The notes under the pieces: model-generated
Database searches by the model: none
Seen by the model: only the letters and a program-made list of their open reading frames with translations
What the model was told of the DNA's origin: nothing
Shown: piece after piece, positions 50,663-57,353 of the stretch
Layout of the letters: the number at the start of each line of letters is the position of its first letter
Numbering within the stretch: the stretch's first letter is position 1
Position numbers and translations under genes: made by a program
Source: Eledone cirrhosa
Taxonomy: Eukaryota
DNA length: 64,000 nucleotides
Direction of reading: 5' to 3'
Assembly: GCA_964016885.1 (NCBI GenBank)
Contig: OZ024747.1
Span: 85,746,001-85,810,000, forward strand

Positions 50663-51273
50663 CGTCAGGTCACCAGTTGGTGCTACTGGTAACATGTATC
50701 CCAGTACAACCTGTCCCATGGTCGGGTCGTTGGCGACTAAACTGGCAACCCCACCATGGTTTCTTGGTGAGGAGGGTGACTTTGGACATCCTGCAGGACT
50801 AAAAACAAAACCTGTCAAAGGGCAAAGGAGCTCTTAAGAGTCAATGGCCATCCAAAATTACCGGGAGAGATGACCCCTTAGCCTTTGTCAAGGCAGAATT
50901 CTAGGAGAAGGAAAACTCTGATATAACACCTGCAACTCTGATGGTATCCAATGATGTTGACTTGTTCTTCTTTTTGGTAAATATCATCTTGGTTAAGAGA
51001 GTGGGACTGGCTTTGTGCAGTGCCTTTGCTCACTATAAAAGCTTCACGGCACAGGCATTGCTTTATATCTGGAGATCTCTCTGCACTTGTCATCACATGG
51101 TACCATGGGCCCAGCACTATGTGTCAATAATTGTCACAAGTGTAGTGTTTGTACCAGAGTTTTCAAGTCGCTGGCTGGACTAAAAAGTCACACTCGTTGA
51201 GCGCATCGGTAGGAGTTCTCCTACATGGATATAAAGTAGTGGCCGTACTCGAAAACGAGTTGGCAGCCACCAT
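50663..51273 (+). mobile_element. Family C RTE-type element, copy 3 (longest 5' end)
   Basis: Near-identical to the other copies from 50677. Confidence 0.85.
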
Positions 51274-52506: not shown

Positions 52507-52509
52507 AAA

Positions 52510-52869
52510 GAAAACTCTGATATAACACCTGCAACCCTGATGGTATCCAATGATGTTGACTTGTTCTTCTTTTTGGTAAATATCATCTTGGTTAAGAGAG
52601 TGGGACTGTCTTTGTGCAGTGCCTTTGCTCACTATAAAAGCTTCACGGCACAGGCATTGCTTTATATCTGGAGATCTCTCTGCACTTGTCATCACATGGT
52701 AACATGGGCCCAGCACTGTGTGTCAATAATTGTCACAGGTGTAGTGTTTGTACCAGAGTTTTCAAGTCGCTGGCTGAACTAAAAAGTCACACTCGTTCAG
52801 CGCATCGATAGTTCTCCTACATGGATATAAAGTAGTGGCCGTACTCGAAAACGAGTTGACAGCCACCAT
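52510..52869 (+). mobile_element. Family C RTE-type element, copy 4 (5'-truncated) with (TATG)n tail
   Basis: Same 3' end, shorter 5' end. Confidence 0.85.
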
Positions 52870-53225: not shown

Positions 53226-53441
53226 GCACACACATACACGTACACATCTAGAATCATAGACACACGAAAAACATGAATACTTATATGTATAGACAAAAAC
53301 CATTATCAGTGCATTGCAGTTCAGGATATAGGTGTCCTCTGAGTGTAAACAAGGGGGAGGACTCCTCTCCATTGTTTACATTCGCAGAGTATATTAGTAT
53401 AAAGAACGAGGAATCAGTAATGCATTAAACCTCAATTTATT

Positions 53442-53535
53442 AACATATTACATATGTTTCTTCGTTGCTCAGCTCGAGGCAGGATCTGTTACAGATCGAA
53501 CCCGACTCTGCATTCGAAGAGTCTTCAGATACGTC
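53442..53535 (-). ncRNA. Type I hammerhead motif with a long stem II
   Basis: Minus strand: gacgtat-CTGAAGA-ctcttcg..(~55 nt)..cgaa-GAAAC-ATAT-GTA|atatgtt, then AATAAA. Confidence 0.7.
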
Positions 53536-53572
53536 TTGTGTGTTCAAACACACAAGACACACACACATACAC

Positions 53573-53610: not shown

Positions 53611-53656
<46 letters not shown>

Positions 53657-53823
53657 GGGATAACAGATTATTGTTATAGTTAGTCCACTTAGGTGTAGTC
53701 TAGTTAGGGTACTCCGAGTAGTGGATGATATCACCGCTTGGCTAAGTTTGACTCAACAAGGCGTTTCCATAGTGATGCTGCGAGTATGCGGTGATTTCTA
53801 TGTTGTAAACACTTGGAGTAATG

Positions 53824-54163
53824 ATAAATCAAGAAAGAAGAGTGACACGGTTTGCTATACAAAAAAGGTTTTTAATCTCATTGCTGACAATTGTTTCTCT
53901 GAATTGGTAGGTCTAGAGATCGCCACCCGCTTGTTTTCACGTCATTCGATCACCAATACATAGTTGTAACCAGTCAATTCATCAGAGCATTCTCGCAAGC
54001 TCTGATGAATTGACTGGTTACAACTATGTATTGGTGATCGAATGACGCGAAAACAAGCGCGTGGCGATCTCTAGACCTACCAGTTCAGAGAAACAATTGT
54101 CAGCAATGAGATTAAAAACCTTTTTTGTATAGCAAACCGTGTCACTCTTCTTTCTTGATTTAT
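53824..54163. mobile_element. Fold-back element, 165-bp arms with a 10-nt loop, hammerhead in each arm
   Basis: About three mismatches between arms; gct-CTGATGA(54002)-long stem II-GAAAC(54090)-AATT-GTC|agc, then ATTAAA. Confidence 0.88.
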
Positions 54164-54269
54164 ATATATATATATTAAAGTGTTAAACAATATTCAATGA
54201 TTATGTCAAAGAATGAGCTTTAGAGTAGATTGGAAGCACTCAACGATATATAATTTTCTGGAGTTATTA

Positions 54270-54562
54270 ATATTAAAATATAAGTATTAATAAAATAGAT
54301 GTTCTTTTGATCAATTACATTTTATTATACATATTTCGGATGTACAACAGTACATCCTCATCAGACAAAATATAATGATACATGACATACCCTTAGATGT
54401 TAAATGGTTAAGATTACCTTGATTATATCTTAACCATTTAACATCTCAGGGTATGTCATGTATCATTATATTTTGTCTGATGAGGACGTACTGTTGTACA
54501 TCCGAAATATGTATAATAAAATGTAATTGATCAAAATAACATCTATTTTATTAATACTTATA

Positions 54563-54571
<9 letters not shown>
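54270..54571. mobile_element. Fold-back element, 145-bp arms with a 12-nt loop, hammerhead-like core in each arm
   Basis: CTGATGA-ggatgtac tgtt gtacatcc-GAAAT-AT-GTA then AATAAA; ends in (TA)n. Confidence 0.85.
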
Positions 54572-57105: not shown

Positions 57106-57196
57106 GTAATAGTAATAAATGTGAAGACTAAAATCCAAAGAGGGCTCGATAAGGATAAATATATATCAAATATATAAGAACCGTAGAGCAAATATT

Positions 57197-57296
57197 TATT
57201 AAAATAACAGATTAAAGTTTAAGCAAAGAATCGCTGCTTTCACCCTTGACGTTAAGGGGGAAAGCAGCGATTCTTTGCTTAAACTTTAATCTGCTA

Positions 57297-57304
<8 letters not shown>
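57197..57304. repeat. Hairpin with ~52-bp arms; one arm partly repeated at 9691-9725
   Basis: tattaaaataacagattaaagtttaagcaaagaatcgctgctttc..gaaagcagcgattctttgcttaaactttaatctgctattttaata. Confidence 0.88.

Positions 57305-57353
<49 letters not shown>

What the first reader, a model, noticed from the sequence alone, without database searches (positions are those of the whole stretch)
53824..54163. 165-bp fold-back whose axis sits immediately 5' of a hammerhead with an ~80-nt stem II
The two arms differ at about three positions and point outward from a 10-nt loop. Each begins 3-4 nt before CUGAUGA and ends after ATTAAA, the right arm running into (TA)n. An intact core (GAAAC-AATT-GUC) with an unusually long stem II insert is present on both strands, so a transcript from either direction would contain a ribozyme and its antisense. 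Inference: a recent insertion formed by fold-back or template switching during Penelope-type reverse transcription.
Basis: partly seen in the sequence, partly recalled or inferred. Interest (0 to 1): 0.75.

Follow-up and report, generated by a model that had tools for sequence, protein, structure and literature searches.

The report
Penelope fold-back at predicted transcription start
This mirror-image DNA is a leftover end of a protein-coding Penelope-type jumping gene inserted back-to-back in a TA repeat, and its centre lies where many copies of the family stop, likely because the element's RNA starts there, just before a predicted self-cutting RNA motif that carries an unusually large, conserved 80-base side arm.

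Summary
The palindrome is real (165-bp arms, 3 mismatches, 10-nt loop) but is part of a larger insertion: the left arm runs 169 nt further (to 53655). It is a head-to-head, 5'-truncated insertion of a Hydra-clade Penelope-like retrotransposon (1,163 exact anchor matches; ~800-aa ORFs) in (TA)n. All 20 of 20 sampled inverted pairs have one arm ending at +165 and one at +334; the short arm carries the loop here, so simple self-fold-back is excluded and two primed cDNAs are likely. The axis position is a family hotspot: 27 of 28 TA-joined 5' ends fall in +3..-14, at a TATA/initiator-like site, likely the transcription start (no RNA data). The hammerhead core is intact; its 75-83-nt stem II domain covaries across sister families and exceeds published Hydra motifs. 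Cleavage is untested, no cleavage-site boundary was found, and 49 of 138 cores carry U4C. Inverted copies, tails and ribozymes are published, and this scan noted the long/short rule before on other DNA. The start-site pile-up and the long domain I did not find described.

The parts
53612..53653 (.). left (TA)n target tract
   Evidence: family ends lie in (TA)n
53655..53823 (-). 169-nt tail (+166..+334), present only on the long arm; in tandem copies it leads on to the ORF start about 50 nt later
53824..53988 (-). long arm, palindromic part (+1..+165), with hammerhead core (CUGAUGA 53985-53979; predicted cut after 53886)
53989..53998 (+). loop = element positions -10..-1; the A at 53989 is the initiator-like A, predicted transcription start and 5' edge of stem I
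53999..54163 (+). short arm (+1..+165), ending at the family's short 3' end
54002..54008 (+). hammerhead core CUGAUGA
54009..54089 (+). 81-nt stem II domain: three stacked helices with internal loops, covarying across sister families
54090..54101 (+). GAAAC-AATT-GTC: core, 2-bp stem III within a self-complementary 8-mer, predicted cut after 54101
54102..54113 (+). 3' strand of stem I, pairing with -10..+3 around an internal loop
54164..54175 (.). right (TA)n tract, shared with the tail of a second, unrelated hammerhead fold-back

Best explanation
This is a 5'-truncated, head-to-head insertion of a Hydra-clade Penelope-like retrotransposon in a (TA)n tract, likely made from two cDNAs primed on opposite target strands and joined near the element's predicted transcription start. 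Shown: family membership, fixed 3' ends at +165 and +334, one of each per inverted insertion, and a pile-up of 5' ends at +3..-14. Inferred: the GIY-YIG endonuclease nicks both strands of (TA)n; reverse transcription starts at the two internal sites on uncleaved sense RNA; when it primes in the 5' part of a transcript begun at the TATA/initiator-like site, it runs off at about -10, like a strong-stop cDNA; here the short cDNA reached -10/-11, the long one +1, and they were joined with 1 nt of microhomology. The hammerhead begins at that start site, would cut slowly or only as a dimer, and is not needed to make such copies. This copy has no promoter or ORF and is likely a dead end.
For: Parent ORFs of 790-812 codons with RWK, DKT, CxCx5C, CxxC, CxH and no CCHH lie upstream of this sequence (criteria); RVT_1 E 7e-6, below the curated cut-off. 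99 of 100 unbiased arms end near +165 (51) or +334 (48); 20 of 20 divergent pairs are long+short. Paired arms are closer to each other than to the median copy in 15 of 15 testable pairs; the window arms share an allele seen in 1 of 73 sampled arms. 27 of 28 TA-joined 5' ends lie in +3..-14 and no same-family end in -15..-25 (30 loci in the first 100 of 153 rows, 2 internal deletions dropped; uniform P about 7e-6). Chromosome sample: 23 of 81 arms at risk end in +17..-14, 0.92%/nt against 0.18%/nt in -61..-250. TATA-like words lie 30-33 nt before the initiator-like A in this family and family B, and 37-42 nt before the core in two more sister families. Sister families show the same pile-up just 5' of the core (read by eye). 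Two RT start sites, cleavage and extension of both strands and use of uncleaved RNA are shown in vitro for a Poseidon element (PMC11167929, parts 1-2 of 4 read).
Against: No RNA evidence for the start site. No excess of cap-derived G: 3 of 24 copies starting at -10 with a non-C neighbour. One sister-family copy starts at -21; in the chromosome sample 11 of 58 arms scored in -15..-60 (0.41%/nt; at least 3 are alignment artefacts), so the boundary is not absolute. The predicted start coincides with the 5' edge of stem I and with short palindromes, so sequence effects are not separated from a start site. The most numerous sister type (L226) shows the pile-up without a clear TATA. D. virilis Penelope has a TATA-less internal promoter (PMC2377424, passages). 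The recurrence of one junction (8 of 25 near-axis loci) also suits a self-priming step.
Confidence: 0.68

Rival explanations
1. Same element, but the head-to-head form arises by self-priming: an antisense RNA (or one cDNA) whose 3' end lies at about -11 folds back and is extended, and the unequal ends come from endonuclease resolution.
For: Proposed for rotifer Penelope (PMC3846280, passages). The same junction recurs in 8 of 25 loci and has 3-nt microhomology in one allele class. Where the loop-bearing arm is long (L036, L040) a cDNA fold-back fits.
Against: Here and at L033, L221, L222, L223 the loop-bearing arm is short, so DNA self-copying cannot give the long arm. Solo arms joined straight to (TA)n stop at the same place. 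An antisense 3' end at the sense promoter is unexplained; sense RNA is the template in vitro.
Confidence: 0.15
2. The 5'-end hotspot reflects structure, not a transcription start: cDNA ends refold on the complement of stem I or anneal through local palindromes, which favours joining there.
For: Stem I begins at -10; several axes sit on natural 6-nt palindromes at -3..+3; the pile-up follows the core even where no TATA is clear.
Against: Better TA microhomology at -18..-22 draws no same-family ends; TATA-like words hold canonical spacing while the spacer diverges.
Confidence: 0.2
3. The stem II insert is a retained 52-59-nt GY-AG intron; splicing would leave a compact stem II with a 6-nt loop and switch the ribozyme on.
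For: A pyrimidine-rich AG precedes the 3' strand of stem II in 18 of 18 aligned sequences and GT or GC follows the 5' strand in 16 of 18. Penelope elements keep 5' introns; the D. virilis intron lies 46 nt after the start and abuts its hammerhead.
Against: Donors are weak and often GC; one subfamily has AC there. The pyrimidine tract and the G are explained by covarying pairs, and the whole insert is structurally constrained. No insert-less copy matched in the genome (not decisive, as these elements retain introns).
Confidence: 0.12
4. Assembly or chimeric-read artefact.
For: No read bridged the junction in the runs laid (reduced-representation data, sparse).
Against: Arms carry private differences and end at two family-fixed points in TA tracts; the same junction occurs elsewhere with different flanks.
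Confidence: 0.02

Closest known systems
Hydra clade of C-terminal EN+ Penelope-like elements (Craig et al. 2021, PMC8557442; section 11, passages and supplement parts read)
   Same: RWK, DKT, CxCx5C linker, no CCHH, CxxC and CxH, (TA)n targets, 3' hammerhead, inverted 5'-truncated copy, tail at one end.
   Different: Tail 169 nt against the 30-40 nt stated for PLEs; stem II domain 75-83 nt against at most about 24 nt in the Hydra rows of File S2; Hydra-1_Obim has a different, short motif.
PLE minimal type I hammerheads (Cervera and de la Pena 2014, PMC4209133; parts 1-2 of 4 read)
   Same: Type I, short palindromic stem III, unpaired base at the foot of stem II; opposite-strand pairs 100-700 bp apart already noted.
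   Different: No G10.1-C11.1 pair; three-helix stem II domain; U4C common in amplified subfamilies.
Poseidon element PAc (Frangieh et al. 2024, PMC11167929; parts 1-2 of 4 read)
   Same: Two internal RT start sites bounding the tail, both target strands extended, uncleaved RNA used.
   Different: Other clade; start sites adjacent and inside the ORF, here 169 nt apart and before the ORF; head-to-head products not analysed in the parts read.
Adineta vaga Penelope families (PMC3846280; passages)
   Same: Head-to-head inverted pLTR, tail at one end, palindromic junctions, putative TATATATA and initiator in the pLTR.
   Different: Explained there by antisense self-priming; no copy-level map of 5' ends in the passages read.
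Non-LTR retrozymes (10.64898/2026.07.22.740005; part 1 of 5 read)
   Same: Type I hammerhead, PLE-derived.
   Different: No tandem array here; the sequence is the end of a coding family.

Membership tests
Hydra-clade PLE | single ORF with RT and C-terminal GIY-YIG-type endonuclease | tested here: met
   (790-812-codon open frames in related copies); RVT_1 in 1 of 2 proteins, below cut-off, no Pfam hit for the endonuclease, which is assigned by motifs
Hydra-clade PLE | RWK and DKT motifs | tested here: met
   L067-L069
Hydra-clade PLE | CxCx5C linker, no CCHH, CxxC and CxH near the C-terminus | tested here: met
Hydra-clade PLE | (TA)n insertion | tested here: met
Hydra-clade PLE | placement in an RT phylogeny | not tested
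   no tree built; reference sequences were only seen in a supplement
PLE insertion structure | inverted 5'-truncated copy, tail at one end, partial tandems | tested here: met
   20 of 20 pairs; tandem pLTRs in L063, L068
PLE insertion structure | tail of 30-40 bp | tested here: not met
   169 nt
PLE insertion structure | target-site duplication | tested here: inconclusive
   both flanks are (TA)n
type I hammerhead ribozyme | CUGANGA, GAAA, NUH and stems I-III | tested here: met
   stem I only 72% paired across families; Rfam gave no hammerhead hit
type I hammerhead ribozyme | G10.1-C11.1 pair and compact stem II | tested here: not met
   A.A apposition, 81-nt domain
type I hammerhead ribozyme | self-cleavage | not testable with these tools
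   active fold 5.2 kcal/mol above the minimum as a monomer; no sharp genomic boundary at the cut
non-LTR retrozyme | tandem non-coding units | tested here: not met
spliceosomal intron (stem II insert) | conserved GT donor, AG acceptor, spliced form | tested here: inconclusive
   AG conserved, donor weak or GC, no spliced copy

The most novel reading that the evidence does not exclude
A clan of Hydra retrotransposons starts transcription exactly at the 5' edge of its hammerhead, makes two strong-stop cDNAs from one locus's RNA that are joined head to head, and regulates cleavage through a conserved 80-nt stem II module (a protein-binding switch or a retained intron), so that genomic copies record the RNA's 5' end at base resolution.
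Probability: 0.25. Interest if true: 0.72.

Novelty: new variant of a known kind. Interest (0 to 1): 0.47.

Why it matters
How Penelope-like elements make inverted and tandem insertions, and what their hammerheads do, are stated open questions (PMC8557442). This family gives countable constraints: one long and one short end per inverted pair, 5' ends stopping at a predicted start site rather than at the ribozyme cut, and amplification of U4C cores. Each turns into a simple test (5'-end mapping, cleavage with and without the 80-nt domain). The long covarying domain also shows a class of hammerheads that standard descriptors and Rfam miss. The locus itself is an ordinary dead copy.

Tried and rejected
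Cleavage-site truncation: two arms of the chromosome sample start at +104/+105 and only 1 of 86 ends in +41..+103, but genome-wide 7 of 13 TA-adjacent starts lie upstream of the cut (+84..+100); no sharp boundary, rejected. Cap-derived G: 3 of 24, at least one explained by the partner arm; not supported. A palindromic master element copied as a unit: the same junction occurs with four alleles and both polarities; rejected as the general source, though L033 and this locus share loop and polarity. Insert-less genomic copies: none. Twin hairpin beyond both ends (earlier notes): not evident in one quick fold of L063; not pursued. Rfam: only miRNA-like hairpin hits below gathering scores. Sequencing runs: no RNA holder listed; no bridging read. 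Metagenome scan: one 33%-identical relative, not informative. First end-mapping script double-counted loci and was replaced. PMC5785218 is not held, so published small PLE hammerhead variants were not checked there. Paper searches for the start-site and long-stem claims; none listed a description, but subscription papers are mostly absent and bioRxiv supplements are closed.

Full report
Coordinates: +1 is the G three bases before CUGAUGA (53999 on +, 53988 on -).

Observation. The inverted repeat is as described: 165-nt arms, three mismatches, 10-nt loop. Both strands carry CUGAUGA, an 81-nt insert and GAAAC-AATT-GTC. Rfam reports no hammerhead.

Family. A DNA search of the 3.0-Gb own genome gave 1,473 candidates, 40 scored; an exact 20-nt anchor matched 1,163 places. 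Upstream of the motif, copies run into a 3' UTR and an endonuclease C-terminus; related copies hold open frames of 790-812 codons with RWK, DKT, CxCx5C, CxxC, CxH and no CCHH, the features listed for the Hydra clade (PMC8557442 section 11). Pfam gives RVT_1 at E 7e-6, below cut-off, for 1 of 2 proteins. No tree was built. In tandem copies the tail leads into the ORF start about 50 nt after +334, so ribozyme and tail are the 5' leader as well as the 3' end.

3' ends. Of the first 100 of 1,163 anchors (contig C1), 51 end near +165, 48 near +334 and 1 at +251. All 20 divergent pairs have one of each. Near-axis loci agree: 15 of 19 examined are long+short, 2 had a degraded arm and 2 belong to another family. 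Paired arms are closer than the median copy in 15 of 15 testable pairs; the window arms share an allele seen in 1 of 73 arms and differ by 1.8%, against 1.3-5.9% in the sample. This is the published inverted-copy-plus-tail structure with a longer tail. Earlier notes of this scan report the same rule in other families; I tested it here independently.

Why the axis is next to the ribozyme. 25 loci have both arms starting within about 20 nt of +1, 8 of them with nearly this junction, in four allele classes and both polarities. In the unbiased sample 23 of 81 arms at risk stop in +17..-14 (0.92%/nt), against 1 of 86 in +41..+103, 11 of 58 in -15..-60 (at least 3 artefacts) and 16 of 47 in -61..-250. 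Among 5' ends next to (TA)n, 27 of 28 fall in +3..-14, with a mode near -10, and the exception is a sister-family copy at -21 (first 100 of 153 rows, 30 loci, 2 internal deletions dropped, read by eye). The A at -10 sits in a TCATT word 31-33 nt after a TATATATAG run; family B has TATAAAAG 30 nt before the same position, and two more sister families have TATA-like words 37-42 nt before the core (promoter consensus recalled). Sister families pile up likewise. The simplest reading is that cDNAs run off the RNA's 5' end. Against: no RNA data, no cap-G excess (3 of 24), no clear TATA in the L226 type, and the site coincides with the edge of stem I. A matching boundary at the ribozyme cut was sought and not found (7 of 13 starts upstream of it), which fits use of uncleaved RNA as shown for PAc.

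Mechanism. Here the loop-bearing arm is the short one, so a cDNA folding back on itself could copy only 165 nt; the 334-nt arm needs a second template pass. With two RT start sites and extension of both target strands shown in vitro for another clade, I infer two cDNAs, one per strand and start site, joined by microhomology. Antisense self-priming remains a rival.

Ribozyme. The long-insert form is a clan: 840 further matches to a pattern that excludes this family (some unrelated). In 18 representatives the insert is 75-83 nt; a structure I specified from these sequences has 87.9% of cells paired, 51 cells with changes on both sides against 20 in shuffles, 0 of 500 reaching it, and slid controls at 28-44% (sequences are related, so this is not a probability). 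Basal stem II halves pair better within than between families (-8.2 against -4.3 kcal/mol). Stem I is weaker (72% paired), RNAalifold alone recovered only 8 distal pairs, and the window sequence alone folds no better than shuffles (z -1.1). The active monomer fold is 5.2 kcal/mol above the minimum, and stem III is a self-complementary 8-mer suited to dimers (PMC4209133). 49 of 138 cores of this family read CCGAUGA, so an intact U4 is not needed for spread; its effect on cleavage is recalled, not tested. Hydra motifs in File S2 have stem II regions of at most about 24 nt; the longest loops there are 29-35 nt in spike-moss elements. An intron reading has some support (AG in 18 of 18, GT/GC in 16 of 18) but covarying pairs explain these letters and no spliced copy matched.

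This copy. Both arms begin downstream of the TATA-like word and there is no ORF. A read-through transcript would form a 165-bp duplex (-293 kcal/mol) with the antisense arm made first, so the ribozyme would likely be silent. Reads did not bridge the junction, but an artefact is unlikely.

Verdict. Real; a new variant of a known kind. Known: inverted Penelope insertions, tails, pLTR hammerheads, putative TATA/initiator words in pLTRs. Not found in my searches (scan notes): a 5'-end pile-up at the predicted start site and a conserved 80-nt stem II domain. Interest 0.47.

Noticed in passing
window 54176-54571: Second, unrelated hammerhead fold-back sharing the right TA tract: arms 54270-54414 and 54427-54571 (3 mismatches), compact 20-nt stem II, axis 50 nt before the core, and a 94-nt tail on the left arm only.
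   Followed up: partly
window about 53300-53545, minus strand: Third hammerhead-like motif (CUGAAGA at 53528) with a 61-nt stem II region, in a repeat just left of the finding; three such elements lie within 1.3 kb.
   Followed up: no
window 29252, 48041, 57876: Further type I hammerhead-like motifs, the last with a 50-nt stem II region.
   Followed up: no
window 26171-26310 and 57192-57309: Shorter hairpins (66- and 50-nt arms) of other repeats.
   Followed up: no
window 50908-51207 and 52507-52806: 97%-identical direct repeat 1,599 nt apart; a similar sequence flanks L023.
   Followed up: no
L029/L030, L209/L210, contig C25 rows: Copies duplicated with their flanks (segmental duplications), which should count once in statistics.
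   Followed up: partly
L141, L189, L217: Other elements appear to be inserted at the family's own TATA-like run (-46), suggesting it acts as a TA target.
   Followed up: no
L225-L252: Most sister families have GUU rather than GUC at the predicted cut.
   Followed up: no
L032, L045: A different hammerhead family also folds back just 5' of its core.
   Followed up: no
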